64,000 bases of DNA, from NCBI GenBank assembly GCA_963795355.1, contig CAWCHM010000009.1, positions 172,932 to 236,931 on the forward strand, in the 5' to 3' direction. The DNA is from an uncultured Acidobacteriota bacterium. GTDB taxonomy: Bacteria; Acidobacteriota; Terriglobia; Acidiferrales; UBA7541. The translations under genes and the position numbers were made by a program. This document shows, piece after piece, positions 1-17,077 of this stretch; the first letter of the stretch is position 1; each line of letters starts with the position of its first letter. The notes under the pieces are model-generated. The model saw only the letters and a list, made by a program, of their open reading frames with translations, was not told where the DNA came from and did not search any database.

Positions 1-683
1 CACACTCCAAATCTCCACATCCAGATCCGCCACCACGCCTCAGCCCTCACCGCTTGCAGCGTATCGACTTCTTCCGCCAGCAAACATCCGAGCAGCCACA
101 CCGGCAGCAAAATCGCCGCCGTCCCCAACGGACCGTAGTCGTGCCACGACAATGCACGCACATGCGTGGCCGCCACTCCCACGCTTACAGCAAACGCTGC
201 CGGGATCACGCGGTCCCAGCTAACGATGCGCCGCAATCGCCGCAACAACGGATACACCGCGTAATAAATCTCTTCGCACAACAAACTCCACAGCGGCGAC
301 TGCCACAAAATCGAATGCTCGCCCCAAAACACAAATCGCTGTCCCACAAATCGATATACTCCGACCGCCGCCGCGACCGGAATCACAATCCGCGTGTACC
401 GCCGCAAATAATAGCGGCCCACCTCCATCTTTCGATCGCCGCGATACGGCAAGTGAATGCAAAATCCCGAAATCACAAAAAACACAATGACCGCCGGCGT
501 CCCAAACACAATCGACTGCCACCCATGCACTACAAATCGCCCAACGCGCGTCGTTTCATCCACGCCCGCAAACAGCGGAAACGTTTCGAAGTGCCCGATC
601 GTCACCCACAGCGCCAACACGAACCGCAACGCATCCAGCACCGCATATCGCCGCTGGCCCTCCGGTTTGTCGAACGTGCGCAT
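1..683 (-). CDS. Acyltransferase family 3 (OafA-like) membrane protein, truncated by the window edge
   Basis: Not in the ORF track because it runs off the edge. My minus-strand translation from ATG 683 (AGGA RBS) reads MRTFDKPEGQRRYAVLDALRFVLALWVTIGH...VFFVISGFCIHLPY...LRRYTRI...WSLLCEEIYY, which contains the AT3 motifs LDxLR, FFVISGF and WSLxxEExYY. Confidence 0.85.
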   Translation of the reverse strand, partial: MRTFDKPEGQRRYAVLDALRFVLALWVTIGHFETFPLFAGVDETTRVGRFVVHGWQSIVFGTPAVIVFFVISGFCIHLPYRGDRKMEVGRYYLRRYTRIVIPVAAAVGVYRFVGQRFVFWGEHSILWQSPLWSLLCEEIYYAVYPLLRRLRRIVSWDRVIPAAFAVSVGVAATHVRALSWHDYGPLGTAAILLPVWLLGCLLAEEVDTLQAVRAEAWWRIWMWRFGV

Positions 684-689
684 CAAGTC

Positions 690-2738
690 CTATTTCGAAG
701 TCACGGCTGGAACAGCATAGTTCGCGTATTGCTCCGTTCGCTCTCCGCTCAGTCGCGAAGCTAGCAGCGACTCTGCCCCTGCCTTAGCTTCTGCGGTGCC
801 CACGCGAAGGATGCAGTGCGCATGATTTTGCTCGCAGCCCTGCTTGCAAGGCTCAGTCGCGGATTCCGGCTGAAGCACGCGATGCTCGCTCGTCCACGGT
901 CCGAATCGCAGCGGGGAATTCTCATGATTCGCATCGCCACTCTTCGGATGGCATGAAATCTCGAGCACCGCGCTGCCCGCCGCTGCCGCCAAATGCATCG
1001 GCCCAGAATCGTTTGCCACCGTCAGCTGCGCCTTCTCTAAGAGCGCGCCTGTCTGTCGAAGGCTCAGTCCGCCGCAAAAATTGATCGCCCCAGGAACTGC
1101 CTGCTTGACGCGATCGCCGCACTGAACATCTTCCGGCCCTCCAACGACGACGATCCTCGCGCCATGCTGTGCTTCGAGAAATCTCCCCATCTCCACAAAT
1201 CGCGCTAGCGGCCATCGTCGCCGGCGATGAGCAGCACCCACGCCCAGCGCAATGATCGGATCGTTCGCAGATACTCCGTTCAATTCAAGCATCCTGCGAA
1301 TCGTCTCGCGATCATCGGCCGATAACCAAAGCTCCAAACATTTTTCGCGGACCGCCCCACCCGCAAATCGCAACAAATCCAGGTTGCGCTCGACCTCATG
1401 TTTCACCGTTGAATCACGGATCGCGTGCGTCAACAGCAAATCGAATCCTCGATTCACTTCGCTCTTCGAAGCGGAAACGTCCTCCGAGTAAGCAACACGC
1501 TGTCTGGCGCCGCTGAAATTGGCGAGATAAGCCGAATGATACAGGTCGGCGTCCCAGCGCGGGATCAAAGCAAGATCAAATCGATTTCCTCGAATCTGGC
1601 CTCGCGAAAACCGCAGCGCCTCCAGGACTCGCCCCAAATTTACCGTGGTTCCGCAAAAAGACAGCTCCGCTCCCAGAACGCGATTCACATACGGACATTG
1701 TTCGACAAGATTGAGGAGCTTAGGGTCGACAACGAAGGTTATTCGCGCTCCCGGGTTCGACCTGCGCAATTCGCGTAGAAATGCGCTCGTCAAAACAAGA
1801 TCGCCGATGCTGTCCTGTCGAATGACAAGAATATTCGCCGCGTTTCGCACGGATGCTTCCACGTCGCGAGTGTTGTCGCCGCGACTGGTGCCGCCATAAA
1901 GCAGCGCCTTCGAATAAATCCTGGTCATTCGCGGCGAGATCATCGCTCGGGTGGCGCTCGCCGCTGTTCGCCTTGCAAACCGCACCGGCGCTCGATAAAC
2001 CGCACTCACGGATGAGGAAGCAAAACTACTCTTTGAAATCAGGGCCGGAAAATCGACCCGCGCGGTGCCCTTGCGGACCGCGTACGCGCAATCCGACACC
2101 AATGTCGGCTTCTCGATCTTGTCTCGAAAGAATTCGTCGACCGCTTTCATCGCACCGGGGCACGACGGCGCCGCATAGTCGTCGAACAGTATGATTCCGC
2201 CTGCGTCCAAGCGTGGATAGACGAATTCGCACGCTTCTTTCACACTGTGATACAGATCGGCATCGATGTGAGCGAAGCAAAAATGCTGCCGGCTCACTTC
2301 CTGCAGCGTGTCGGAAAACAATCCGGGATGGAATCGAAACGGAAATCCAGGAACAACATGACTCAGGCTCTCAGAGACCATCGCGGCACTCGTGTCCGAA
2401 AAATCGAACTCTTCGTGGGTATCCAGTTCTATCGTCGGAGGCATGCCTCCGAACGTGTCGAAGAGATGAACCGCCCGTTCGAGTCCAGCGCGCCGCAACA
2501 TCCAGCCGATTGCAGCCGCGCTGCCTCCACGATACACACCCATCTCAATTACTTCGCCGTCGCATTTCGACGCGGCCAACTTCACCAATTCCAGCACGGC
2601 CAAAATCCGCCGCGGATCAAGGAGCGAATGCAATCTGCACTGCTCGAGCGCTTTGAGACACTGAGCAAGATCCGGCGAGTAGCGAACAGAAAATTCGCTG
2701 ATCTCCCGCGGAGCGCTCGCTGGCTTTGCTCTCTTCAA
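690..2738 (-). CDS. Fusion of a TylF/MycF-type O-methyltransferase (N-terminal) and a GT9 heptosyltransferase-like glycosyltransferase (C-terminal)
   Basis: The N half has EMGVYRGGS, LFDTFGGMP, HIDADLY and FDDY. The C half has ILVIRQDSIGDLVLT, RRWP and VANDSGPMHLAAA. The start is probably TTG 2738, which overlaps the upstream TGA and follows a GAGGG RBS; the ORF track starts at 2765. Confidence 0.85.
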   Translation of the reverse strand: MKRAKPASAPREISEFSVRYSPDLAQCLKALEQCRLHSLLDPRRILAVLELVKLAASKCDGEVIEMGVYRGGSAAAIGWMLRRAGLERAVHLFDTFGGMPPTIELDTHEEFDFSDTSAAMVSESLSHVVPGFPFRFHPGLFSDTLQEVSRQHFCFAHIDADLYHSVKEACEFVYPRLDAGGIILFDDYAAPSCPGAMKAVDEFFRDKIEKPTLVSDCAYAVRKGTARVDFPALISKSSFASSSVSAVYRAPVRFARRTAASATRAMISPRMTRIYSKALLYGGTSRGDNTRDVEASVRNAANILVIRQDSIGDLVLTSAFLRELRRSNPGARITFVVDPKLLNLVEQCPYVNRVLGAELSFCGTTVNLGRVLEALRFSRGQIRGNRFDLALIPRWDADLYHSAYLANFSGARQRVAYSEDVSASKSEVNRGFDLLLTHAIRDSTVKHEVERNLDLLRFAGGAVREKCLELWLSADDRETIRRMLELNGVSANDPIIALGVGAAHRRRRWPLARFVEMGRFLEAQHGARIVVVGGPEDVQCGDRVKQAVPGAINFCGGLSLRQTGALLEKAQLTVANDSGPMHLAAAAGSAVLEISCHPKSGDANHENSPLRFGPWTSEHRVLQPESATEPCKQGCEQNHAHCILRVGTAEAKAGAESLLASRLSGERTEQYANYAVPAVTSK

Positions 2739-3457
2739 TTCACTTCCCTCTGTGCACAGACCCAAAAGCTGTACATCGCGTCCGGTCCATCGTCGCGTGC
2801 GATCACCTTGCAGTGATTCTGTTCAAGGGCCTTCCTGACGATCGCCGGCGTTGGCGTCCATTTGTGATCGCCTCCCACAAACGGCGACCCAACTTCCCAG
2901 ATCCCACAATCGGGATGCGGCAGATACAAGAAAACATTTCCTGCGTGCTTCACCTTCGAAATCCACTCGCGCAGTTTCTCTTCCCAGTCGGCGTTGTGCT
3001 CAAGACAGTGCGAGCTGAATACAAAATCCTGACTCTCGGCAGGAATTTCGTCGATGTTCGTGGCCGCTCCGGGACCTCTCCACGTGTCGACCGGAATCGC
3101 TCCGGGCAAGGGCCACAATCCTGCCCCGATGTCGATTCCACTTCCCTTGCAATACTTCAGAGCTTCCCGAAAAATCGCGTGACACGCGCCGCCCACCGTC
3201 AAGTAGTCCGGATAAAATTTCCCTTTGTATTCCCACCCTCCCGGCTTTCGCTTTGCTGATGGCTGTTGCAACAACTCTCGGTAGACTCGAAATATGTCCG
3301 GCGCATCGGATAGCGTTTCCAATGGCTGCGTCTTTGTCCTGCGCACCAGTTCCCTGAATCTAAGGAAATAGTGTGAAACACCATGCCGATCTCTTCGATT
3401 TTGACTTTCAACCTTCATGTTCGCCGGTACCCATCGATACGGTTCCTGTGCAAGCAT
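2735..3457 (-). CDS. Class I SAM-dependent methyltransferase
   Basis: GIDIGAG motif I and DFVFSSHCLEH. Alternative start at ATG 3418. Confidence 0.8.
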   Translation of the reverse strand: MLAQEPYRWVPANMKVESQNRRDRHGVSHYFLRFRELVRRTKTQPLETLSDAPDIFRVYRELLQQPSAKRKPGGWEYKGKFYPDYLTVGGACHAIFREALKYCKGSGIDIGAGLWPLPGAIPVDTWRGPGAATNIDEIPAESQDFVFSSHCLEHNADWEEKLREWISKVKHAGNVFLYLPHPDCGIWEVGSPFVGGDHKWTPTPAIVRKALEQNHCKVIARDDGPDAMYSFWVCAQREVN

Positions 3458-3487
3458 TTCTTCGTGATCTGTGAATTTTCCGCCGCT

Positions 3488-4710
3488 TCACCTGTTTACG
3501 TTAGGTTCGGCGGTGAAGGGCACGGGGAAATTCAAAATTCCGTTCCATCGGTCGTCCGGATGTTGGTGACTATCCGTCACTACACACAGTTCCGGCACGC
3601 ACTCATACGTATCCACCAGGTCGGATTGCTCCCAAAAACTGACGAACCAGCTGTAGAGTCCCGGTCGTAGCGGAAGTATCGGAAACGCGTGGCGAAGTTC
3701 GTGACGGCCGATTTCGAGCTTCAATCCATCGATCGCCCGGCCCCAGACGATTTCTCGGTTGTGGTTGTAGAGCGCCACACCATGATGTCCGTACCGGATC
3801 GGCGTGTTGACCTGCAGCGCAAACTTGATCGTAACTGGCCCGAATGATTCCAATTTGTGGCGGTTATCCGGCTCCGCTCCTTCGATTTCCCACCCGTAAA
3901 TTGTGCCGCCGTTTCGCTCTGCTTATTGACCGCGTCGGGCTGCCGATCGCCCCGCGCCATCGCCGCTTCATAAGCACTCACAACTTCATGCGCAGGCCCC
4001 ACCATACGAACAGCCCCGCCATCCACCCACACCACCCGGTCGCACAATCTTCGCATCTGGTTCATCTGGTGCGACACCAGCACCACCGTTCGTCCCGCGC
4101 GCGCCACATCTCCCATCTTCCCCAGACACTTCTTCTGAAAATTGATGTCCCCGACTGCCAGCACTTCATCCACTAGCAAAATCTCCGGCTCCAGGTGTGC
4201 CGCCACCGCAAACGCCAGCCGCACATACATGCCACTCGAATAATGCTTCACCGGCGTGTCGATAAACTTTTCGATCTCCGCAAACGCGATGATCTCGTCC
4301 AGCTTTCGGTCGATCTCGCGCTTTTTCATTCCCAACAGCGACCCGCTGAAATATGTATTCTCTCGCCCGGACAGTTCGCCGTGAAATCCCGTCCCGACTT
4401 CCAGCAGGCTCCGCACGTGCCCGCGAATCTCCGCATGCCCGGTCGTCGGCCGCGTAATCCGCGACAATATCTTTAGCAGCGTCGTCTTCCCCGCTCCATT
4501 CCGCCCGATCAGCCCCATGACCTCGCCCTCTTTCACTTCGAGCGAAACGTCCTTCAGCGCCCAAAACGACTCCTGCTTCGAACGCCGCAGTGCCGCCACT
4601 GGATTCCGCGCAAATCGCGTGATCGAGTCGCGCAGCATCCCGCGCGCTTCCACCGCCCCGCGCGAGTACCGCTTCCCCAACCCCTCCGCCGCAATCACCG
4701 CCGTCGCCAT
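3488..4710 (-). pseudogene. wzt: Wzt ABC ATPase with a C-terminal carbohydrate-binding domain, split by a 1-bp frameshift near 3892-3896 (real, or an assembly error)
   Basis: Walker A GRNGAGKTT, signature YSSGM and Walker B LLVDE lie in ORF 3721-4710. The frame of ORF 3488-3853 continues as FTG|WEIEG...LRPGLY...GILNFP, which looks like a Wzt C-terminal domain. The joined length is about 407 aa. Confidence 0.85.
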
Positions 4711-4742
4711 CCCGCCCCTTCACTCCCGCCCAGTTCGTTCCT

Positions 4743-4785
4743 GGGTGCCGCACCCTCAGTTTTTAGAGGGTGCGGGTTTTGACTT
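4743..4785 (+). repeat. REP-like hairpin, GGGTG-CCGCACCCTC family, copy 1
   Basis: Arms CGCACCCTC (4749-4757) and GAGGGTGCG (4766-4774), followed by GGTTTTGACT. A near-identical copy lies at 58917-58958. Confidence 0.75.
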
Positions 4786-4869
4786 TCCTTCGAGCGTCGT
4801 ACCCAAATCAACCTGTTCGAACAGTGCCGCCTGCATCTCCAAGAATCCAAATGATTTACAAATTACACT

Positions 4870-4898
4870 TTGACGACTTCAATAACATTCGATAGGAT
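4870..4898 (+). promoter_or_regulatory. Sigma70-like promoter with no cognate plus-strand gene (cassette A)
   Basis: TTGACG-N17-TAGGAT; both flanking genes are on the minus strand. Confidence 0.6.
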
Positions 4899-4980
4899 TT
4901 CGCTGTGAGCGCTACCCAAAGCGCCCGACGGAGTCACCCTCGCCATAAAAGCATTTCCGCGTTCGCTGCAAAAACTCCCG

Positions 4981-5068
4981 TAAGCCCTTTAAAATCACAT
5001 TCTTGCCTCAGGACGAGGCCTAACTCCCCTGGAATCACATTCTTACGAAAAAGCTACCGGGGGTACCC
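4981..5068 (+). repeat. Pair of 26-bp sites 40 bp apart plus a G-run (cassette A)
   Basis: TAAGCCCTTTAAAATCACATTCTTGC (4981-5006) and TAACTCCCCTGGAATCACATTCTTAC (5021-5046), then CGAAAAAG and GGGGGTACCC. Confidence 0.7.
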
Positions 5069-5076
5069 ACCCTTCT

Positions 5077-5988
5077 TCACACCCGATCCGCAACTGTTCC
5101 TTCCACCCGCTGGAAGAAAATCAATCCCGCAACCACCAGCAACAACACAACAACCGCCGAAACCGCCATCTGCGCGCCCGGAGGCTTTCCAACTCCCGTC
5201 AATGCCCAGCGGAATCCATCGATGACACCCGCCATCGGATTCAGCCCATACAGCCAGCGCCACCGCTCCGGCACCAGCGAACTCGGATACGCCACCGGCG
5301 ACGCCAGCATCCAGAACTGCACGACGAACGGAATGATCGACGCGACATCGCGATACAAAGCGTTCAACGCCGAAGTCCAGAGCCCGACACCGAGCGCGGT
5401 CGCCACGGCGAGCAGCAAGAACACAGGTAGCAGCGCCACGGTCGCCGGCGGATGGATTCCAAAACTCAACGTCAAAATAATCATCACCACGAAGCCGATC
5501 ACGAAATCGAGCAATCCCGAGCACACCGCGGCCAGCGGCAGTACGAGCCGCGGAAAATATACTTTGGTGATGACATGCTGATTGGCAACGACGATCGTCG
5601 TGCAGTTTTGCAGCGCCTGCGCGAAATATGTCCACGGCACCAACGCCGCAAAATAGAAAACTGGATACGGAAGTCCCTCGGAGGGCAGCTTTGCCAATCG
5701 CCCGAAAAAGATTGTGAAGACGCCCATCGTCATCAGCGGTTGCAGGATCACCCAAGCGACGCCGATCACCGTCTGCTTGTATCGAACCTTGACGTCGCGC
5801 CAGACGAAGAAATACAGCAGCTCGCGATATTCCCAAAGCTCGCGCAGCCGCAGCTCGAGCAGCCCGCGTGGCGGCTCGATCCTCACCGTCACAATCGCAT
5901 GCGCAGGAATCGGCAACGCTTCCGCAACAGCTTTCGCGGCGGCGAGAGCGCCATCGGCCGAAGACGGAGGTGTAGTGACTGTCGCCAT
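5077..5988 (-). CDS. wzm: Wzm ABC-2 type polysaccharide transporter permease
   Basis: ELWEYRELLYFFVWRDVKVRYKQT, six hydrophobic segments, RD...FWMLASPVAYP and NPMAGVIDGFR; adjacent to wzt. Confidence 0.92.
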   Translation of the reverse strand: MATVTTPPSSADGALAAAKAVAEALPIPAHAIVTVRIEPPRGLLELRLRELWEYRELLYFFVWRDVKVRYKQTVIGVAWVILQPLMTMGVFTIFFGRLAKLPSEGLPYPVFYFAALVPWTYFAQALQNCTTIVVANQHVITKVYFPRLVLPLAAVCSGLLDFVIGFVVMIILTLSFGIHPPATVALLPVFLLLAVATALGVGLWTSALNALYRDVASIIPFVVQFWMLASPVAYPSSLVPERWRWLYGLNPMAGVIDGFRWALTGVGKPPGAQMAVSAVVVLLLVVAGLIFFQRVEGTVADRV

Positions 5989-6188
5989 CAAAATCTCAAC
6001 GCGTTTCACCGCGCGAAAAAGGTCTCAAATGAGCTGGGAACTCTCGAAATAGGCTATCAGAGCCGCGCGAAATGCAATCGCCGGCGAACGCGTTTGTTTC
6101 GTGGAATGCGCTACCAAGTACTATTCGCAGTTTGAGTCTTTCGATGCGGATTTCATTCCGCTCAGTGCTCGACCGATTTTTTGAAAAG

Positions 6189-7754
6189 CTATTTGGCATG
6201 CATTTGCTCGATGTCGCGCTGCTCGATCTGCTGCATCAGGTTTGATCGATGAAACAGGTAGCCTTGCGCCTTCGCGACAATTTCTCGCGGCACGATTGCG
6301 AACTGGTTGTGAATCATCTCGCTCCACACGATCGGTCCGCGCGCTGGGACAAGATGCGTTCCCCACTGAAAGATGAACGCCATGTTCCACAGGATGAGAA
6401 GCGCAGCCGCAGCGCCAAACGTCGCTAACGCTATTCGCTGAGACGCAAAGAATCTCGCAGCGCGGCTGAAGAAAACAGCAAGGCCAATGATGAAGATCGG
6501 AGTCAGCGAAACGAAGAAGCGATTTCCGTACGAGGAGATCCCTGTCCAATCGGGATAGCACGCGATGAACACATAAAACGCGAGCATCGCCGCAAGGATC
6601 GCGCCTCCGACCCGCGGTTCGCGCAGCGCAAAGATCAAAACGCCGATGCACGCCAACGCAATCACCGGAGTCCACGAGACCAATCCGTGTTCCGACGAAA
6701 ACAGCACTGCGAGAAAATACGGTGAGCGCCACGCCCAGTCTTTCAGCGATACATAACCCGACTCGAACGGGTTTCCGTAAATCACGTAGCGCGACGCAAG
6801 CGTCGGGAACATACAAGCAATCATGACCAAACCGAACTGCACATGGTTTGTCACAAGCTGCGGCAAACTCGGTTGAGTCTCGTGCTCCAATGAAAATTGT
6901 CGTCGCAATGCGGCGAAATATTGCGGAACAGCTTCGACGATCAGGACCGCAAGCACCATCGCGTTTGGGTAATAGACGTTGAGCATCAAGCCTGCGATGG
7001 CCGCGAGCACGAACCATTGCGTCGTGCTACGTGTTTCACGGGTTTTGTGCCAATACCAGAGGAACAGCGCGACCACGAACGCGGAATGCGCGTGCGACCA
7101 CGACGGGTTAAAATACATGTAAACAGGCAGCGAACTCGCCCACCAGATCGCGACCGTCGCAAGAAAAGCCCAGCGCTCGCCGGCATATTTCGTCGCCAAA
7201 CGCATCGCTAACAGCAAGCCGAGGAATCCGTACACCGCGGTTCCCAGCGCCATCGCAAATCGATACGGCGCGGAGAATCCATCCGCAGCGACGTTCGAGC
7301 CAAAAGCGCGAGCGACGAGAACGCCAGCATGCGCCACGACCAGAAACGGCGCCCACAAAATCGCTGGACCGACGGTGAAGTGATTTTCGAGATGATTCGT
7401 CGTCGTGCGAAACACCGACTTCGGATTGCCGTTTTCGTCGAGGCGCGCGTCGCGGAAACTCGCATTGGCGGCGTTGTAATCAGGAGTGAAATCGAGATTG
7501 TGTTGGATCAGCACAGCGCGCGCGAACGCGTAGTAGCCGACTCCGTCTCCGCGCACCCACGGATTCATCAGCGCGAGCGACAGAAAGAACAGTCCGAGGA
7601 GCCAGCGATACGCGCTGCGCCGAGCAGGAGACTTCGCAGTTAGGGAGAATTCAACGTGAGAACGGAGAAATGCGGGAGAACTAGACTCCGCCGGAGACAC
7701 TTCTGCGGCAGTGGCCAGATGGGGCGCCGAAGCGGCTGAATGCGCGGGGGGCAT
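6189..7754 (-). CDS. Multi-pass GT-C fold (family 39/PMT-like) glycosyltransferase
   Basis: A TM segment followed by RGDGVGYYAFAR in the first loop, about 10-12 hydrophobic segments, and polysaccharide-locus context. Confidence 0.65.
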   Translation of the reverse strand: MPPAHSAASAPHLATAAEVSPAESSSPAFLRSHVEFSLTAKSPARRSAYRWLLGLFFLSLALMNPWVRGDGVGYYAFARAVLIQHNLDFTPDYNAANASFRDARLDENGNPKSVFRTTTNHLENHFTVGPAILWAPFLVVAHAGVLVARAFGSNVAADGFSAPYRFAMALGTAVYGFLGLLLAMRLATKYAGERWAFLATVAIWWASSLPVYMYFNPSWSHAHSAFVVALFLWYWHKTRETRSTTQWFVLAAIAGLMLNVYYPNAMVLAVLIVEAVPQYFAALRRQFSLEHETQPSLPQLVTNHVQFGLVMIACMFPTLASRYVIYGNPFESGYVSLKDWAWRSPYFLAVLFSSEHGLVSWTPVIALACIGVLIFALREPRVGGAILAAMLAFYVFIACYPDWTGISSYGNRFFVSLTPIFIIGLAVFFSRAARFFASQRIALATFGAAAALLILWNMAFIFQWGTHLVPARGPIVWSEMIHNQFAIVPREIVAKAQGYLFHRSNLMQQIEQRDIEQMHAK

Positions 7755-11179: not shown

Positions 11180-12187
11180 TTAGACGGCGGAGTTGGCGGC
11201 GGCGCGGTGGGGCACGGCTGGTTCGGCCTTTTGCTGGAAGAAGGCGGCGACGCGGTCGATGATTTCATTGAGGTTGGTGCGCGGGCGGAATCCGGTCAAC
11301 CCTTCGAGCTTATCGACGCAGGGGACGCGGCGCATCATATCTTCGAAGCCGGGTTCGTAGGCTTTGTCGTAGGGGATGTATTCGATCGACGAGCGGCTTG
11401 AAGTGCGCTGCTTGACGCGATCCGCCAGGCCTTCGATCGTGACCTCTTCCGTGTTGCCGATGTTCACAACTTCGCCGATGGATTTTGATGTGTCGAGCAG
11501 TCGCAAAAGCGCTTCGACGGTGTCGCGAACATCGCAGAAGCAGCGCGATTGTTTTCCGTCGCCGTAAATCTGGATGGGAGTGTTGTCGAGCGCGGATTTG
11601 ACGAAATTGGGAAGCACCATGCCGTAGCGGCCCGTCTGGCGCGGCCCGACCGTATTGAAAAAGCGGACGACGATGACGGGGAGATGCTTTTCCTTCCAGT
11701 ACGAAAGCGCGAGAAACTCGTCGAGCGCCTTGGATGCGGCGTAACTCCAGCGGCCTTTCGTGGTGGGCCCGAGAACGAGATCAGCGTCTTCATGAAACGG
11801 CACGTTGGTATTCTTGCCGTAGACCTCGGAAGTGGAAGCGGTGAGGACGAGCTTCTTTTTCTTGTTGGCGGCTTCGAGAATCATCTGCGTGCCATTGACG
11901 TTGGTTTCGATGGTGCGGACGGGGCTTTCGACGATCAGCTTCACGCCGACGGCCGCCGCGAGGTGAATCACCGCATCGGCGTCATCCACGAGCTCGGCGA
12001 CAAGCTGCTTATTCTCGATGTTGTCGAGGTGATATTGCATGCGGTCGAAGGATTTGAGATGGCGGATGTTGTCCATGCTGCCGGTGGAGAGATTGTCGAG
12101 CAGCACGACGTTGTCGCCGCGATCGAGCAGGCGCTCTGCAAGATGAGAGCCGATGAAGCCGGCACCGCCAGTAATCAGAAATCGCAG
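11180..12187 (-). CDS. NAD-dependent epimerase/dehydratase (extended SDR), CTG start
   Basis: The frame extends upstream of the ORF-track start to CTG 12187: LRFLITGGAGFIGSHLAERLL (GxxGxxG), ASTSEVYG and YAASK. GGAGG RBS lies 5 nt before the CTG. Confidence 0.88.
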   Translation of the reverse strand: MRFLITGGAGFIGSHLAERLLDRGDNVVLLDNLSTGSMDNIRHLKSFDRMQYHLDNIENKQLVAELVDDADAVIHLAAAVGVKLIVESPVRTIETNVNGTQMILEAANKKKKLVLTASTSEVYGKNTNVPFHEDADLVLGPTTKGRWSYAASKALDEFLALSYWKEKHLPVIVVRFFNTVGPRQTGRYGMVLPNFVKSALDNTPIQIYGDGKQSRCFCDVRDTVEALLRLLDTSKSIGEVVNIGNTEEVTIEGLADRVKQRTSSRSSIEYIPYDKAYEPGFEDMMRRVPCVDKLEGLTGFRPRTNLNEIIDRVAAFFQQKAEPAVPHRAAANSAV

Positions 12188-12259
12188 AAATCCCTCCGCA
12201 ACCGACCAGAATGAAAACTACACGGAAATCATTGCACCGCAACAGGGAAATAATAAAAG

Positions 12260-14635
12260 CTAAAGCTGTTGAATATCGTCGTCGTGCTCGCGATGGCGAC
12301 GGTGAGAACCGTGCGCCGCAGATGCGGCAAACGCGGCTTCCGGCTCGTTCTGCTCGCTGTCGCCCTCCGAATGCGAATCGGAGCCGGAATCCTGCGGTCC
12401 ATACCCGTAGGAATACGGATAGTAGCGATAGGAGTAGTAGTAGTCGGGAGCGCTGGAATCGACCGCGTTGAGAACAACGCCGAGCAGGCGGCAGTTTACG
12501 CTCATGAGCAGGTCACGGGTTCGCGAGAAGGCTTCCTTGGGAGTCTCGCCGCTGCGGACGACCATGACTACGCCGTCGGCCTTAACGGAGAGAATCACGG
12601 CGTCGGTAGCGGCCATGACGGGCGGCGTGTCGATGACGATGAATTTAAATTTGGTGCGCAATTCGGTGATCGCGTCGGCGAACCGGTGCGACGAAAGCAG
12701 GTCGGCTGGATTGGGGGGCAGGGGACCCGTCGGAATTGCGGACAAATTTGGAATCGCGGGATGCTGCACGGTGACGAGATCGAGGCTCGAAACGCCGGCG
12801 AGATACGAGCTGAGGCCCGCGTATTTATTTCCGTTGAGATTGAGCAGGCGGCCAACGCCCGGCTTGCGAAGGTCGGCATCGATGAGCAGCGTGCGGTCGC
12901 CAAGTTGCGCTAGCGTGACAGCTAGATTCGCCGCCGCGGTGGTTTTGCCTTCGCGGGGCAGGGCGCTGGTGACGAGAATCACCTGCGGCGGATGACCCGC
13001 TTGCGACAGCAATAAGGCGGTGCGAAGGGCGCGGAATGCTTCGGACATCTGCGACTTCGGCAAATGCTGCGCGACAAGCTCGACGTGGCGCGAGTGACCA
13101 TTGCCGAGCGAATCTGCCAGCGAGCGCCGGCGAGGTGCATCGCCCTCGGAATCCTGGAACGCCGGTACGACTGCGAGCGACGGCAAGCGTGAAAGCGTCT
13201 CGATGTCGTCGGGCGTCTTCACGGTGTTGTCCATATATTCACGCAAGACGGCAAGGCCAATACCGCCGACCAGACCCACAAGAAGCGCAAGCGTGACGTT
13301 GCGCGTTTTCGCGGGGCGCGCAGGACTTGACGGGATCATCGCTGGATCGACGACGCGAATGTTCGAGGACTGCAGCGCCGAGGAAATGCCCGCTTCCTTC
13401 AGTTTGGTAAGCAGCCCGTCGTAAAGCGCTTTATCGGCTTCGGCGTCGCGCTTGAGGATGTTGTACTGCACCATGCGCTCGGACATCAGGTTGGCTTCGG
13501 ACTTCTGTTGATCGAGCGTGTGGTTGAGGAGCTCTTCGCGTTGCTGGGCTTCGTGAAATTCGCTACCGAGGCGCGCGACGACAGCTTTTTTCTCGCGCTC
13601 CAAGTTCTGATCGATTTCTTTGAGCTGCGACTGAAGGCGCTGAACCTTTGGGAAATTTGGGCCGTATTGAGCCAGCGCTTCGGCGTATCCCCCGTTGAGA
13701 TCGGCACGGCGCTTGAGGAGATCCTGCACGGTGGCGGAGTCGCGAATCTGCGGCACGATGTCGGCATCGCCCTGCTTCGCGAAGTCGTACATCGACTGCT
13801 TTTTCATGCGATCGCTTTGCGCGTCGATGAGCTGGCGATTGAGTTCGGAAAGGCGCTGCGTGGTGATGTTCTGCTTGTCGTCGACTTCCCAAATCTGATT
13901 TTTGCGCTCGTAATCAAGGCGGGCGTCTTCAGAATTTTTAACTTTAATTTTCAGTTCGTCGAGCTGATCGGTGAGCCAGGTTGTGGCCGCGGTGGTGGCG
14001 TCGTAATGGCTGCGGCGATTCTGGTCGATGAAGTTGCGAATGTGCGCGTTGACGACCTGCGCGGCGAGCTCGGGAGTGTTGGCCTCGTAGTTGATATCCA
14101 TCAGGCGGCTGTTGGGCACGCGCTTGACGCTGAGTGAACCGAGGAACGCGCCGAGTTCGGGCGGCCGCTTTTGATTGGCGAGGCTGCCAGTGGCGATCGC
14201 GTCGGACTGCGAATCAGGGCCCCCGACGCCCGAGAGAATGCCGGAGCGGATGGTCTGGAGCGCCAGCGTTTCGCTGGTCAAAATTTTGGATTGCGTCTCG
14301 ATGTAATTTTCGAGATCGAGCATGTAGTCGTAGGAGTCGGTGCCCTGGAACGGGAGGATGTTGGCGTTCTCGCGGCCGAGTTCGATGCGCGTTGTCGCGA
14401 CGTACACGGGCTGCATACGGAATGTGGCGATCGAGACGATGGTGACCACTGCGAGCATGAAGGAAAGAATCAGCCACTGATGCTTGCGGAGAATGAGCAG
14501 GTAGTCCCAAAGGTGCGGTTCTCGCGCCGGCAGGTCCCACGCGGGACGCATCGCCGCGGGCTGCTGAGGAACGATGTCGACCGTCGCCACGCTGGCGGGC
14601 ACGTCGCGCGAAAGCATGTTGAATTCGTCAGCCAT
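12260..14635 (-). CDS. wzc: Wzc-type polysaccharide co-polymerase / BY-kinase
   Basis: Two TM segments flanking a coiled-coil periplasmic region; SALPREGKTT, LIDADLRKP and IVIDTPP; Tyr cluster DYYYSYRYYPYSYGY. Confidence 0.92.
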   Translation of the reverse strand: MADEFNMLSRDVPASVATVDIVPQQPAAMRPAWDLPAREPHLWDYLLILRKHQWLILSFMLAVVTIVSIATFRMQPVYVATTRIELGRENANILPFQGTDSYDYMLDLENYIETQSKILTSETLALQTIRSGILSGVGGPDSQSDAIATGSLANQKRPPELGAFLGSLSVKRVPNSRLMDINYEANTPELAAQVVNAHIRNFIDQNRRSHYDATTAATTWLTDQLDELKIKVKNSEDARLDYERKNQIWEVDDKQNITTQRLSELNRQLIDAQSDRMKKQSMYDFAKQGDADIVPQIRDSATVQDLLKRRADLNGGYAEALAQYGPNFPKVQRLQSQLKEIDQNLEREKKAVVARLGSEFHEAQQREELLNHTLDQQKSEANLMSERMVQYNILKRDAEADKALYDGLLTKLKEAGISSALQSSNIRVVDPAMIPSSPARPAKTRNVTLALLVGLVGGIGLAVLREYMDNTVKTPDDIETLSRLPSLAVVPAFQDSEGDAPRRRSLADSLGNGHSRHVELVAQHLPKSQMSEAFRALRTALLLSQAGHPPQVILVTSALPREGKTTAAANLAVTLAQLGDRTLLIDADLRKPGVGRLLNLNGNKYAGLSSYLAGVSSLDLVTVQHPAIPNLSAIPTGPLPPNPADLLSSHRFADAITELRTKFKFIVIDTPPVMAATDAVILSVKADGVVMVVRSGETPKEAFSRTRDLLMSVNCRLLGVVLNAVDSSAPDYYYSYRYYPYSYGYGPQDSGSDSHSEGDSEQNEPEAAFAASAAHGSHRRHREHDDDIQQL

Positions 14636-14638
14636 AAA

Positions 14639-15748
14639 TCAGGGCACCAACCGGTAGATCAGGACGCCAGTCGCGACGGCAGACGCGATTTCGGCGGCGC
14701 GAATCGTGGCTTGTTTCGCGGCGCTGCGTGGGATGTACAGAATGTCGGACGGGCGAAGCTGCACGTCTTCGGCTTCAAACTTCATTACTTTTTTCAGATC
14801 GACCTCGACTTCGCGCTGCTGGCCGGTGCCGTCCTTGCGGACGATGACGGCGTGATCGGATTTCGCGGTGCGTTCGAGACCACCGGCAAGAGAGAGGATT
14901 TTGAGCGTCGAAAGCTGGGCGCGGTCGTTGGTGACGGTGTAGCCGCCGGGCTTGGAGACGGCGCCAAGAACGTAGACGATGCCCGCGTGCGGAACGGTGA
15001 CGACGTCTCCGGGCTGAATCACCACGTTGTTCGACATGTCGCCGGCTTCGAGGATCTGGCTCAGGTTGACGGTGATGGTGTTGACGAGCGGGAGAGGAAT
15101 TTGTGGCGGCTCGGCGGACTTTTCGGCTGACGCGTCGTTGCTCGCGGGCGCAGCGGACGCCATGTCCTGAGCTGTGTCGGAAGCGTCCTGCAAAGCGTCG
15201 CGCTCGGGGCGCGTGACGATCACGTGATCCGCCGCGTCGGGCGTGATGCCGCCGGCCTGCGCGAGAACATCGATCAAAGTGACCTGGCGGTCGGCCTCGT
15301 AAACCATCGGGTGCGCTACGGCACCGACGATCGTGATCGGGCGGCTCTTCTTTTCTTTGACGGTGACGCTGACTTCGGGATGCGAGATCAGGCCGTTGGC
15401 CTCGAGGACTTCCGTAATTTTGCGCTCGGTCTGAATTTCGTTAAGGCCCGCAACGTGAAGGCGAACGGGCACGAGTGGCATGCCGATGGTACCGGTCTGG
15501 CTGACGCGCAACTCGCGCGACATTTCGGGGACGTCGAAGACTTGCACATTGACGAGATCGCCCGGACCGATGACGTAGTCGCTCGGCGCTGAACTTCGAG
15601 GGGACGTCGCCGCGAGTGAACGCAGGCGCTCGTTCGCTTTGTCGGATGTCTCCACACTCTGCGCGCGGAGGGAGGGGGCCGCATGCAACATCAAGAAACT
15701 GGAAATGGCGAGAGACAGAGCCAAGGCGCGCAGGCCGTTTGGCTGCAT
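14639..15748 (-). CDS. wza: Wza-type polysaccharide export protein (Poly_export plus SLBB domains)
   Basis: YVIGPGDLVNVQVFDVPEMS, ITIVGAV, YVLGAVSKPG and LRPSDILYIP; adjacent to wzc. Confidence 0.88.
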   Translation of the reverse strand: MQPNGLRALALSLAISSFLMLHAAPSLRAQSVETSDKANERLRSLAATSPRSSAPSDYVIGPGDLVNVQVFDVPEMSRELRVSQTGTIGMPLVPVRLHVAGLNEIQTERKITEVLEANGLISHPEVSVTVKEKKSRPITIVGAVAHPMVYEADRQVTLIDVLAQAGGITPDAADHVIVTRPERDALQDASDTAQDMASAAPASNDASAEKSAEPPQIPLPLVNTITVNLSQILEAGDMSNNVVIQPGDVVTVPHAGIVYVLGAVSKPGGYTVTNDRAQLSTLKILSLAGGLERTAKSDHAVIVRKDGTGQQREVEVDLKKVMKFEAEDVQLRPSDILYIPRSAAKQATIRAAEIASAVATGVLIYRLVP

Positions 15749-15808
15749 AGGATTATAAGACCCCCCAATGTTGATTACACAGTTAAAAGGCCAAAGTCAA
15801 CATCGATT

Positions 15809-17077
15809 TCAACGTTGGTGTCGATTTGGTCGAGGGGGCAGATCGCTAGGCGGGGATGGAATAACCGCGGATGTGGCCAAATGCGCGGTTAGAAGGAAGA
15901 AGAGGGCATTGGCAGGGATATGGAGGTTGAAATCGACCAGACTATGTACCAGAAAGGCACTACAGCCGAGGAGGCCGGAGAGGTGGAGAGAGGCGGCGAA
16001 CGATTTGTCGATTTGCAAAACCTGACGGAGCGAGATGAAAAAAAGCACACCGAGGAACCATGCGCAGCAGACGCCACCGGCGATTCCGGTTTCGGCGAGC
16101 TCTTCGAGGTAGTCGTTGTGCGTGTGGTTGACGATTTTTCCGTCGTATTGCGTCTCGTAGGCGGGAAAGACGGTTTGCAGCGTGCCGAGGCCGGTCCCCG
16201 TGTATTTGTGGTCGAGAAAGATGCGCCAGGTATCCTGCCGCATGGAAGCGCGCTTGCCGGTGGTGACTTCTAGATTTTGGAGCGAGGAGAAGCGGTCGAG
16301 CACCTGCTTGACGCCGAGCCAGGAGACAAACAGGAAAGCGAGGAAGAGGACGAGGCCGCCGGCAAGGACATGGCGACCACCGGTGCGGCGCAGCAGCGAG
16401 ATCAGGAAGAGGAGGACGAGTTCGACGCCGAAGCTGACGACGCCCCCGCGTGAAGCCGAGAGGAAGAGCGCACCAATCGGCAGGAGCGCGCAGATCGCGA
16501 CGACGAACCAGCGTTCGCGGCGAACCTTACCAAGAATCAGTGGCACGAGGGAAACGGGGATGACGAGTTCAACGAAGCCGGCAAAGTGGTTGCGGTTGAC
16601 ATACGGGCCAAACGGGATGCCGCCATAACGCATCTCGCGGAACCAGTAGAGCTTCCCGTTGAAGGTGAGCTGCTGGAGGATGCCGAACGTCGACACCAGG
16701 AAACCGAAAATCATGACGAACCAGATGTACGCGCGCCAGTCGTCGGAATAGCGGAACGCTTGCGTCGCGAGAAAGAGGATGAGGATGTAGGCGACGAGGA
16801 GATTGAGCTCCATGCGCGTGTCGTAGGTGGAGGCGGTCGCACGGAAGAGCAATTGGCCGAGCGCGATGGCGGCCAGCAGAATCAGCGGCGGGAGCAGCGG
16901 CGAGATGTAGATGCGCTTTTCGTCATCGCTCTTGTCGAAGTAGAAGAGGAATGCCCAGAGGAAGAAAAGCAGACCGGCGCCGGTTTCGATGACGGCACGC
17001 GCCCAGTCTTCGACACCACCGTGAGCGAGCACGCCGAAAACTACGAGTGCACAGATGGAGAATCGGAGGAATTTCAT
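15809..17077 (-). CDS. O-antigen ligase / Wzy_C family membrane protein
   Basis: GPYVNRNHFAG, LSASRGG, GTGLGT and HTHNDYLEELAETG. True start ATG 17077 (ATGA overlap with the upstream stop). Confidence 0.85.
   Translation of the reverse strand: MKFLRFSICALVVFGVLAHGGVEDWARAVIETGAGLLFFLWAFLFYFDKSDDEKRIYISPLLPPLILLAAIALGQLLFRATASTYDTRMELNLLVAYILILFLATQAFRYSDDWRAYIWFVMIFGFLVSTFGILQQLTFNGKLYWFREMRYGGIPFGPYVNRNHFAGFVELVIPVSLVPLILGKVRRERWFVVAICALLPIGALFLSASRGGVVSFGVELVLLFLISLLRRTGGRHVLAGGLVLFLAFLFVSWLGVKQVLDRFSSLQNLEVTTGKRASMRQDTWRIFLDHKYTGTGLGTLQTVFPAYETQYDGKIVNHTHNDYLEELAETGIAGGVCCAWFLGVLFFISLRQVLQIDKSFAASLHLSGLLGCSAFLVHSLVDFNLHIPANALFFLLTAHLATSAVIPSPPSDLPPRPNRHQR

What the first reader, a model, noticed from the sequence alone, without database searches (positions are those of the whole stretch)
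1..6009. TylF-GT9 fusion next to a CBM-bearing Wzm/Wzt: candidate new glycan capping/termination enzyme
Seen: an O-methyltransferase of the TylF type is fused to a GT9 glycosyltransferase through a basic, amphipathic linker. It is co-directional with a second methyltransferase, an acyltransferase-3 and wzm/wzt, and the Wzt has a C-terminal carbohydrate-binding domain. Established: in E. coli O8/O9a the WbdD methyl or methyl-phosphate cap ends chain growth and is read by the Wzt C-terminal domain. Inference: this fusion may add and methylate a terminal sugar that licenses export. I do not recognise this architecture among known terminators.
Basis: partly seen in the sequence, partly recalled or inferred. 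Interest (0 to 1): 0.6.

Follow-up and report, generated by a model that had tools for sequence, protein, structure and literature searches.

The report
Methyltransferase-glycosyltransferase fusion in glycan export cluster
A soil acidobacterium encodes one protein that joins a sugar-methylating enzyme to a sugar-adding enzyme, next to a glycan exporter that reads chain ends; the protein is real and conserved and plausibly makes the methylated end of a surface glycan, but that role is untested and the design varies a known theme.

Summary
A 682-691-aa ORF (window 2738/2765..690, minus strand) carries a TylF-type sugar O-methyltransferase, a basic 50-residue helical linker and a GT9 glycosyltransferase. 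About 45 protein clusters (45-81% identity) have the same architecture, and the reading frame is unbroken in 10 of 12 related loci.

The gene sits in a conserved Acidobacteriota operon: GT-C-like membrane protein, wzm, wzt, small methyltransferase, TylF-GT9, acyltransferase-3, a divergent GT-A glycosyltransferase and a double methyltransferase.

The correction concerns wzt. In this assembly its carbohydrate-binding domain lies in another frame, because one base is missing at 3893/3892. Orthologous Wzt are intact (405-433 aa). I could not test whether the frameshift is real or an assembly error.

The cap/terminator reading is plausible (about 0.45-0.5) but unproven. There is no coiled-coil ruler, other methyltransferases share the operon, and an unfused TylF+GT9 set occurs in a Wzx-type locus.

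This GT9 clade is also fused elsewhere to sulfotransferases, a pyruvyltransferase, other methyltransferases, GT2 and GT4. It therefore looks like a general "add a sugar and decorate it" module. I rate it a new variant of a known kind, of moderate interest.

The parts
690..2765 (-). TylF-GT9 fusion gene. The longest ORF is 691 aa from TTG 2765. The likely start is TTG 2738 (682 aa), overlapping the upstream TGA as TTGA.
   Evidence: A 100%-identical 682-aa protein, P0005, is on record elsewhere.
2073..2696 (-). TylF-type Mg-dependent sugar O-methyltransferase domain (residues 24-231).
   Evidence: PF05711 E 5e-24. AF2 model pLDDT about 90. Foldseek: SpnH TM 0.82, MycF, NovP. Invariant EMGVYRGG, DTF, HIDADLY and FDDY motifs.
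1863..2051 (-). Basic helical linker (helices 239-275 and 278-289, then disordered 291-301).
   Evidence: AF2 secondary structure. Net charge +5 to +12 in 27 homologues, muH up to 0.67, no TM segment.
747..1835 (-). GT9 (GT-B) glycosyltransferase domain (residues 311-673), with a C-terminal Cys/His cluster.
   Evidence: PF01075 E 1e-22. Foldseek: 3TOV TM 0.84, WaaF 0.79, WaaC 0.77. Invariant GD..., NDSGPMH, C605, C640, C644, H650, C651. Below the cut-offs of the LPS heptosyltransferase I/II/III equivalogs.
2735..3457 (-). 240-aa divergent class I methyltransferase ('MT240'), always directly upstream of the fusion.
   Evidence: Weak Methyltransf_11/23 hits. The relative in L060 hits Methyltransf_11 at 4e-12. 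Synteny.
3721..4710 (-). wzt ORF as assembled: NBD, then an out-of-frame tail downstream of the indel at 3893/3892.
   Evidence: ABC_tran E 9.5e-23. Translation. Indel located.
3488..3895 (-). Wzt C-terminal carbohydrate-binding-type domain, encoded in a different frame from the NBD.
   Evidence: Wzt_C E 3.5e-4. Intact orthologues score 27.7 bits, E 3e-6. The profile matches full-length Aquifex Wzt 8DKU.
4711..5076 (.). 366-nt wzm-wzt spacer carrying dispersed repeats, including a REP-like 42-nt hairpin.
   Evidence: Absent in L006. 114 blastn matches in the genome.
5077..6009 (-). wzm (ABC-2 permease, 6 hydrophobic segments).
   Evidence: ABC2_membrane E 1.6e-19..
6189..7754 (-). 521-aa multi-pass membrane protein with a weak PMT_2 (GT-C) signal, conserved directly upstream of wzm.
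   Evidence: PMT_2 E 2e-4. 8 hydrophobic segments. Synteny in L006, L038, L041, L051, L052. Atlas: an Acidobacteriota family, with PMT_2 on 15% of one cluster.
1..686 (-). 5' part of an Acyl_transf_3 gene (386 aa; continues below the window). Downstream lie a 304-aa GT-A-fold glycosyltransferase and a 606-aa Methyltransf_23+FkbM protein (L005 18459-19373 and 16503-18323, minus strand).
   Evidence: GT-A fold: AF2 pLDDT 86.8 and Foldseek hits all GT-A. Atlas name 'GT2 family'.

Best explanation
The protein is a bifunctional, membrane-surface enzyme of an ABC-transporter-dependent (Wzm/Wzt) glycan pathway in an Acidobacteriota bacterium.

Shown at domain level: the GT9 domain is a GT-B glycosyltransferase, and the TylF domain is a SAM- and metal-dependent sugar O-methyltransferase.

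Inferred mechanism:
- The GT9 domain transfers a sugar from a nucleotide sugar to the non-reducing end of a lipid-linked glycan.
- The TylF domain, tethered to it, then O-methylates a hydroxyl of that same sugar.
- The basic amphipathic linker holds the enzyme at the cytoplasmic membrane face.
- The methylated end is the probable ligand of the Wzt C-terminal domain, so the enzyme supplies (part of) the cap that ends growth and licenses export.
- The GT-A enzyme encoded downstream, with extra GT2/GT4 genes in relatives, would build the chain.
- The other methyltransferases and the acyltransferase would add further decorations.
- After export, the GT-C-like protein encoded beside wzm probably modifies or transfers the glycan.

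The sugar is unknown. ADP-heptose is available in this genome. 6-deoxyhexoses are also suggested, by the methyltransferase's relatives and by Gmd/reductase genes next to related GT9 genes.
For: - Domains, fold and catalytic motifs.
- One conserved polypeptide.
- Operon conserved in at least 10 loci, always with a long Wzt. Its C-terminal domain is homologous to the methyl-cap-binding CBD of Aquifex Wzt (PMC9445017).
- In a more distant acidobacterial genome, a standalone GT9 of this clade (43% identity) sits directly after a methyltransferase, in a wzm/wzt cluster whose Wzt_C scores E 3.6e-16, and is followed by Gmd and a reductase.
- The same GT9 clade is fused to other end-blocking or decorating enzymes: Sulfotransfer_1/3, PS_pyruv_trans, Methyltransf_11.
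- Precedent: WsaE, a methyltransferase fused to glycosyltransferase domains, caps a wzm/wzt-exported glycan with 2-O-methyl-rhamnose (PMC2943079).
- An RfaE-type heptose kinase lies among other GT9 genes on contig C8.
Against: - There is no biochemical or glycan-structure evidence.
- There is no coiled-coil ruler like those of WbdD, WbbB or ORF6-O7 (PMC11231755).
- Three other methyltransferase domains in the operon could make the cap.
- Unfused TylF plus GT9 (25% identity), with three more methyltransferases, occur in a Wzx/Wzz-type locus, where capping is not the export signal.
- The GT9 clade is also fused to GT2 and GT4, as in polymerases.
- GT4-GT9 fusions were not near wzm/wzt within about 8 kb.
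- All fusion-bearing loci are orthologous, so their synteny counts as one evolutionary observation.
- In this assembly wzt is frameshifted before its CBD.
Confidence: 0.48

Rival explanations
1. The enzyme adds and methylates an internal, repeat-unit or side-branch sugar. The GT9 domain would be part of the polymerase together with the GT-A enzyme. Any cap read by Wzt would be made by another methyltransferase (MT240 or the Methyltransf_23+FkbM protein).
For: - This operon has only two cytoplasmic glycosyltransferases, so both may be needed for the backbone.
- The split TylF/GT9 set in the Wzx/Wzz locus L060 has four methyltransferases.
- The GT9 clade is fused to GT2 and GT4.
- There is no ruler domain.
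- WsaE's glycosyltransferase domains are themselves polymerising (PMC2943079).
Against: - MT240 is frameshifted in two lineages that keep the fusion intact (L041/L064/L074 and L045/L051).
- The double methyltransferase is absent from the closest relative, L006. The fused TylF is therefore the only methyltransferase always intact beside the CBD-bearing Wzt.
Confidence: 0.33
2. The system makes no long polymer. A short lipid-linked, methylated oligosaccharide is built by the GT9 and GT-A enzymes and exported by Wzm/Wzt. The conserved GT-C-like protein then transfers it to a periplasmic acceptor (protein, lipid or the neighbouring EPS).
For: - The GT-C-like membrane protein is a fixed part of the operon, directly upstream of wzm.
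- The window and its closest relatives have a minimal glycosyltransferase set.
- Wza/Wzc/Wzy_C-type EPS genes lie just upstream in the window.
Against: - The GT-C assignment is weak (PMT_2 E 2e-4, no PDB match).
- Relatives carry extra GT2/GT4 genes typical of polymers.
- CBD-bearing Wzt are known from polymer export (PMC9445017).
Confidence: 0.12
3. It is an LPS-core-type heptosyltransferase with an attached methyltransferase. It modifies lipid A-core and is functionally unrelated to the neighbouring transporter.
For: The best named families are the LPS heptosyltransferases I, II and III. GT9 enzymes classically act on Kdo2-lipid A (established knowledge).
Against: - Scores are far below the equivalog cut-offs (79 bits against 185).
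- The genome has a separate core-type GT9/RfaE locus on C8.
- Synteny and translational coupling within the wzm/wzt operon are strict.
Confidence: 0.05
4. The fusion is an assembly or gene-calling artefact that joins two genes.
For: This assembly does contain frameshifts: wzt and a WaaF-like GT9 on C8.
Against: About 45 independent clusters of around 680 aa carry both domains. The frame is open in 10 of 12 loci from different projects. Linker length is conserved at 66-71 residues. The single-chain model is confident (pTM 0.75).
Confidence: 0.01

Closest known systems
WsaE of Geobacillus stearothermophilus NRS 2004/3a (S-layer glycan pathway)
   Same: An N-terminal O-methyltransferase domain is fused to glycosyltransferase domain(s) and encoded next to wzm/wzt. 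The methyltransferase methylates the terminal sugar added by the same protein and thereby caps the chain (PMC2943079).
   Different: WsaE has two rhamnosyltransferase domains and comes from a Gram-positive S-layer system. Here there is a single GT9 (GT-B) domain, a TylF-class methyltransferase and a basic helical linker. Sequence relatedness to WsaE was not tested.
WbdD (E. coli O8/O9a, K. pneumoniae O3/O5), and ORF6 of K. pneumoniae O7 / WbbB of O12
   Same: These are cap-installing modules (methyl, methyl-phosphate, Kdo) in ABC-transporter-dependent O-antigen synthesis. The cap is read by the Wzt CBD. Modules are distributed in variable multi-domain proteins (PMC3482155, PMC11231755).
   Different: Those terminators carry a long coiled-coil molecular ruler and unrelated methyltransferase/kinase or GT99 modules. 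This protein has only a 37+12-residue helix pair and no kinase.
MycF, TylF, NovP, SpnH (natural-product sugar O-methyltransferases)
   Same: Same Pfam family and fold, with the same SAM-binding and Asp metal-binding motifs. They methylate a sugar after it has been attached.
   Different: Those are standalone, soluble enzymes of macrolide, aminocoumarin or spinosyn pathways. None is fused to a glycosyltransferase.
GT9 enzymes: WaaC/WaaF heptosyltransferases, the Veillonella GT9 structure 3TOV, TibC
   Same: GT-B fold, TM 0.77-0.84. Conserved N-terminal GD motif and D(S/T)GPxH motif.
   Different: It is not an equivalog of heptosyltransferase I/II/III. It has an N-terminal methyltransferase and sits in a wzm/wzt operon rather than a core locus. 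Donor sugar is unknown. Similarity to TibC is weak (TM 0.46).
Aquifex aeolicus WzmWzt (8DKU/7K2T)
   Same: This is the closest solved relative of the operon's Wzt over NBD plus CBD. Its CBD binds 3-O-methyl-Man/Rha caps (PMC9445017).
   Different: CBD similarity is remote: Pfam Wzt_C is below threshold, and the cap-binding residues could not be mapped. In the window the CBD is out of frame.

Membership tests
TylF/MycF-type sugar O-methyltransferase (Pfam PF05711) | Profile match above the curated cut-off | tested here: met
   85.3 bits against a cut-off of 23.
TylF/MycF-type sugar O-methyltransferase (Pfam PF05711) | Class I methyltransferase fold like SpnH/MycF/NovP, with the SAM loop and the Asp triad (xDxDxY ... 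DDY) | tested here: met
   Foldseek TM 0.82 to SpnH. E74-G76-G80-G81, D103, D168/D170 and D195/D196 are invariant in 27 homologues and align to the same motifs in SpnH and MycF. The roles of these residues are from my own knowledge of MycF/NovP.
TylF/MycF-type sugar O-methyltransferase (Pfam PF05711) | SAM-dependent O-methylation of a glycosidically bound sugar | not testable with these tools
   Needs an enzyme assay.
Glycosyltransferase family 9 | Profile match above the cut-off and a GT-B fold like WaaC/WaaF | tested here: met
   81 bits against 22. TM 0.84 to 3TOV, 0.79 to WaaF, 0.77 to WaaC.
LPS heptosyltransferase I/II/III (TIGR02193/02195/02201 equivalogs) | Score above the equivalog cut-off | tested here: not met
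   79, 76 and 74 bits against cut-offs of 185, 135 and 170.
Glycosyltransferase family 9 | ADP-heptose as donor | not testable with these tools
   An RfaE-domain-I kinase is present in the genome, so the donor is plausible but unproven.
CBD-bearing Wzt (capped-glycan ABC exporter) | NBD and C-terminal jelly-roll CBD in one polypeptide | tested here: not met
   In this assembly a missing base at 3893/3892 puts the CBD in another frame. Orthologues are intact at 405-433 aa. Whether the shift is real could not be checked.
CBD-bearing Wzt (capped-glycan ABC exporter) | C-terminal domain homologous to Wzt_C | tested here: inconclusive
   Pfam is below threshold (20.8-27.7 bits against 30.4). However, the family profile aligns in one stretch over Aquifex Wzt 26-393 and gains 44 bits over the NBD-only chains. 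A related cluster, L096, reaches E 3.6e-16.
O-antigen chain terminators of the WbdD/WbbB/ORF6-O7 type | Cap-forming catalytic module encoded with a CBD-bearing Wzt | tested here: met
   A methyltransferase domain is present, and a long Wzt occurs in every locus with enough flank.
O-antigen chain terminators of the WbdD/WbbB/ORF6-O7 type | Extended coiled-coil molecular ruler | tested here: not met
   Only helices 239-275 and 278-289. Linker length is fixed at 66-71 residues.
O-antigen chain terminators of the WbdD/WbbB/ORF6-O7 type | The terminal modification stops polymerisation and is required for export | not testable with these tools
   Needs genetics and glycan chemistry.

The most novel reading that the evidence does not exclude
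This GT9 clade would be a widespread, ruler-less class of 'add-and-cap' terminators for ABC-transporter-exported glycans in soil phyla. One GT9 module installs a dedicated terminal sugar, and the fused partner (TylF or Methyltransf_11 methyltransferase, sulfotransferase, pyruvyltransferase) blocks it. That would give methyl, sulfate or pyruvate caps read by matching Wzt CBDs. It would also be the first role for GT9 outside LPS-core and autotransporter heptosylation.
Probability: 0.22. Interest if true: 0.7.

Novelty: new variant of a known kind. Interest (0 to 1): 0.45.

Why it matters
Capping enzymes set the length and the exported end-structure of O antigens and related surface glycans. The known examples come from a few pathogens and thermophiles.

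If this fusion proves to be a cap-installing enzyme, four things follow:
- GT9 chemistry would be added to the terminator repertoire.
- Termination would be shown to work without a coiled-coil ruler.
- There would be a simple rule for predicting glycan end-groups from genomes: the fused decorating domain names the cap.
- There would be a first handle on surface glycans of Acidobacteriota, an abundant and poorly cultured soil phylum.

If it is only a backbone or decorating enzyme, it remains an ordinary example of module shuffling in glycan assembly.

Tried and rejected
- Artefactual fusion: rejected.
- Orthology to WaaC/WaaF/WaaQ: rejected on equivalog cut-offs.
- WbdD-like ruler: rejected, as there is no long coiled coil.
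- TibC-like protein heptosyltransferase, considered because of the C-terminal Cys/His cluster: similarity is weak (TM 0.46), and the same Cys motif is in the genome's WaaF-like paralogue. Not pursued.
- Mapping the Aquifex cap-binding residues (Trp362 and others) onto this Wzt: the pairwise alignment fades before that region, so no conclusion.
I used the search for related loci, the genome search and the fetch from genomes instead.
- Mann, Kimber and Whitfield 2019 (Glycobiology 29:822), the survey of terminators and CBMs, is not held in the library. I could not check whether it lists GT9-linked terminators.
- Literature searches for TylF with GT9, or GT9 with O-antigen termination, found nothing relevant.
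- PDB sequence searches for the GT-C-like protein and MT240 gave nothing.
- The survey of 400 Acidobacteriota species genomes found no second full-length fusion.

Full report
**What is there.** The window is G000:C9:172932-236931 of a 5.6-Mb, 16-contig Acidobacteriota assembly. The nearest public locus is an uncultured Acidobacteriota MAG. All genes of the finding lie on the minus strand. In transcription order they are:
- a 521-aa multi-pass membrane protein with a weak PMT_2/GT-C signal (7754..6189)
- wzm (6009..5077)
- a 366-nt spacer
- wzt (4710..3721 as an ORF)
- a 240-aa divergent methyltransferase, "MT240" (3457..2735)
- the TylF-GT9 gene (2765 or 2738..690)
- an Acyl_transf_3 gene (686 to 474 nt below the window start)
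- on the same contig, a 304-aa protein without a Pfam match
- a 606-aa Methyltransf_23+FkbM double methyltransferase

The MT240 stop and the probable TTG start of the fusion overlap as TTGA. The acyltransferase starts 3-6 nt after the fusion's stop. This is therefore a tightly packed operon.

**The fusion is real.** Pfam gives TylF (85 bits) at residues 62-218 and Glyco_transf_9 (81 bits) at 390-601. The protein collection holds about 45 clusters of roughly 680 aa with both domains, at 45-81% identity, and a 100%-identical 682-aa protein from another contig. In 12 related loci from several projects the TylF-to-GT9 frame is uninterrupted in 10. One exception has a TGA at an invariant Trp inside the GT9 domain. 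The other is a frameshifted sister contig. At 50% clustering the whole fusion family collapses to essentially one representative. No second full-length copy was found in 400 sampled Acidobacteriota species genomes. It is thus a narrow lineage that recurs in soil and peat metagenomes.

**Structure.** An AlphaFold2 model built on 27 homologues is confident (pLDDT 84.8, pTM 0.75):
- methyltransferase domain, residues 24-231
- long helix 239-275 and helix 278-289
- a disordered stretch, 291-301
- GT-B domain, residues 311-673

Foldseek places the C-terminal domain with the Veillonella GT9 structure 3TOV (TM 0.84), WaaF (0.79) and WaaC (0.77). It places the N-terminal domain with SpnH (0.82), MycF and NovP.

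The SAM loop (EMGVYRGG), DTF, HIDADLY and FDDY are invariant and align with the same motifs of SpnH and MycF. The GD motif and NDSGPMH of GT9 are invariant too. The GT9 domain scores far below the cut-offs of LPS heptosyltransferases I-III.

The linker is basic in every homologue (net +5 to +12) and partly amphipathic. It has a conserved length of 66-71 residues and no transmembrane segment. It looks like a membrane-surface anchor or spacer, not a WbdD-type ruler.

**The Wzt correction.** The window's Wzt ORF ends in about 60 residues of low-complexity, out-of-frame sequence. A Wzt_C-like domain is encoded in another frame. Alignment with L006, L038 and L052 shows a single missing base between 3893 and 3892, in the Gly codon of QFTGWEI. 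Orthologous Wzt are intact at 405-433 aa.

Their profile aligns in one stretch with full-length Aquifex aeolicus Wzt (8DKU 26-393, E 9e-93). That is 44 bits more than the NBD-only chains score. Pfam Wzt_C itself stays just under threshold (27.7 against 30.4 bits). The Aquifex CBD binds 3-O-methyl-mannose/rhamnose caps (PMC9445017).

A second frameshift, in the genome's WaaF-like core heptosyltransferase, suggests an indel-prone assembly. I lean (about 60-70%, my judgement) towards an artefact.

**Conserved context.** tblastn of the window's proteins against all fetched loci shows the same order in L006, L038, L041, L042, L044, L046, L051, L052 and L053: GT-C-like, Wzm, Wzt(NBD+CBD), [variable genes], MT240, TylF-GT9, [acyltransferase], 304-aa protein. 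Fragments of this order appear on shorter contigs.

The 304-aa protein is a divergent GT-A glycosyltransferase. Its AF2 model has pLDDT 86.8, all Foldseek hits are GT-A enzymes, and the Atlas clusters are named GT2 family. More distant relatives insert FkbM and Methyltransf_23 methyltransferases, GT4 and GT2 genes.

MT240 is frameshifted in two lineages that keep the fusion intact. The double methyltransferase is missing in L006. The fused TylF is therefore the one methyltransferase always intact beside the long Wzt.

**The GT9 clade is a shuffled module.** About 980 representatives match at E<=1e-30. Most are standalone proteins of 380-450 aa that include the helical N-terminal extension. Multi-domain members carry the following:
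- Sulfotransfer_1/3, on either side of the GT9 domain
- PS_pyruv_trans
- Methyltransf_11
- GT2
- GT4

In acidobacterial genome G149 a standalone member (43% identity) follows a Methyltransf_23 gene. It sits in a wzm/wzt cluster whose Wzt_C scores E 3.6e-16, and Gmd plus a reductase follow directly. Conversely, in L060 an MT240-like gene, TylF, another methyltransferase, a GT9 (25% identity) and a GT2 are separate genes in a Wzx (Polysacc_synt_3)/Wzz locus. GT4-GT9 fusions had no wzm/wzt within about 8 kb.

**Interpretation.**
- Shown: a conserved single polypeptide with two apparently competent catalytic domains, in an ABC-transporter glycan operon whose Wzt family carries a CBD.
- Inferred: the GT9 domain adds a sugar that the tethered TylF domain methylates. 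The methylated non-reducing end is the cap read by the CBD.
- In favour: the WsaE precedent (PMC2943079), the methyl-cap specificity of the nearest solved Wzt, and the partners of the GT9 clade (methyl, sulfate, pyruvate).
- Against: no ruler, other methyltransferases in the operon, the Wzx-type split locus, and polymerase-like GT2/GT4 fusions.

I put the capping role near 0.45-0.5. Internal or repeat-unit decoration is near 0.33. A short exported oligosaccharide handled by the GT-C-like protein is near 0.12.

**Comparison and novelty.** It works like WsaE and, more loosely, like the WbdD/WbbB/ORF6-O7 terminators. It fails the coiled-coil criterion and shares no catalytic family with those terminators. 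No paper describing TylF+GT9, or GT9 in chain termination, was found. The key survey by Mann et al. 2019 could not be read.

Verdict: a new variant of a known kind, of moderate interest. Its main value is the broader pattern of GT9 "add-and-decorate" modules.

Noticed in passing
window 4711-5076: The 366-nt wzm-wzt spacer is absent from the closest relative, L006 (48 nt there). It contains a roughly 42-nt GC-rich hairpin element (CCGCACCCTC...GAGGGTGCGG) and a 70-240-nt element. The spacer gave 114 blastn matches in the genome, many of them to the hairpin region. These look like REP/MITE-like repeats inserted inside an operon.
   Followed up: partly
G000:C8:230570-231335 (outside the window): The genome's WaaF-like core heptosyltransferase is split between two frames near 'IGYATR | RGILLT'. 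It lies next to an RfaE-type kinase and another GT9 gene. This is a second frameshift in a glycan gene of this assembly, which hints at indel errors.
   Followed up: partly
L041 9284-9923; L064; L074; L045 187-821; L051 9388-10022: The MT240 orthologue is broken into two frames, at two different positions, in two metagenomic lineages. The adjacent TylF-GT9 gene stays intact in both. MT240 may be dispensable or decaying.
   Followed up: no
window 747-950 (GT9 residues about 605-651): An invariant Cys/His cluster (C605, H606, C640, C644, H650, C651) sits at the end of the GT9 domain. A similar CxxC...C...H.C motif ends the genome's WaaF-like paralogue. It may be a metal site. TibC has an iron finger, but overall similarity to TibC is weak.
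   Followed up: partly
P0081, P0130, P0156, P0232, P0212, P0223, P0137, P0182, P0145, P0170, L011, L013: Relatives of this GT9 domain (roughly 33-50% identity) are fused to sulfotransferases, a polysaccharide pyruvyltransferase, Methyltransf_11, GT2 or GT4, in either order. To my knowledge this family of modular glycan enzymes has not been described.
   Followed up: partly
L060 8133-13588: An unfused set (Methyltransf_23, MT240-like, TylF, Methyltransf_25, GT9, GT2) lies in a Wzx (Polysacc_synt_3)/Wzz locus. The link between TylF, MT240 and GT9 therefore also exists outside ABC-transporter pathways.
   Followed up: partly
window 11180-17359: Just upstream lie a sugar epimerase/dehydratase, a Wzc-type tyrosine kinase (791 aa), Wza (369 aa) and a Wzy_C/O-antigen-ligase-like protein (516 aa). 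A MacB-like 910-aa permease sits between them and the wzm operon. The two glycan systems are adjacent and co-directional.
   Followed up: no
L044 about 5471 (codon 596 of the tblastn span): A TGA replaces the invariant Trp of the 'RFxPW' motif in the GT9 domain of one metagenomic orthologue. This may be a nonsense mutation or a sequencing error.
   Followed up: no
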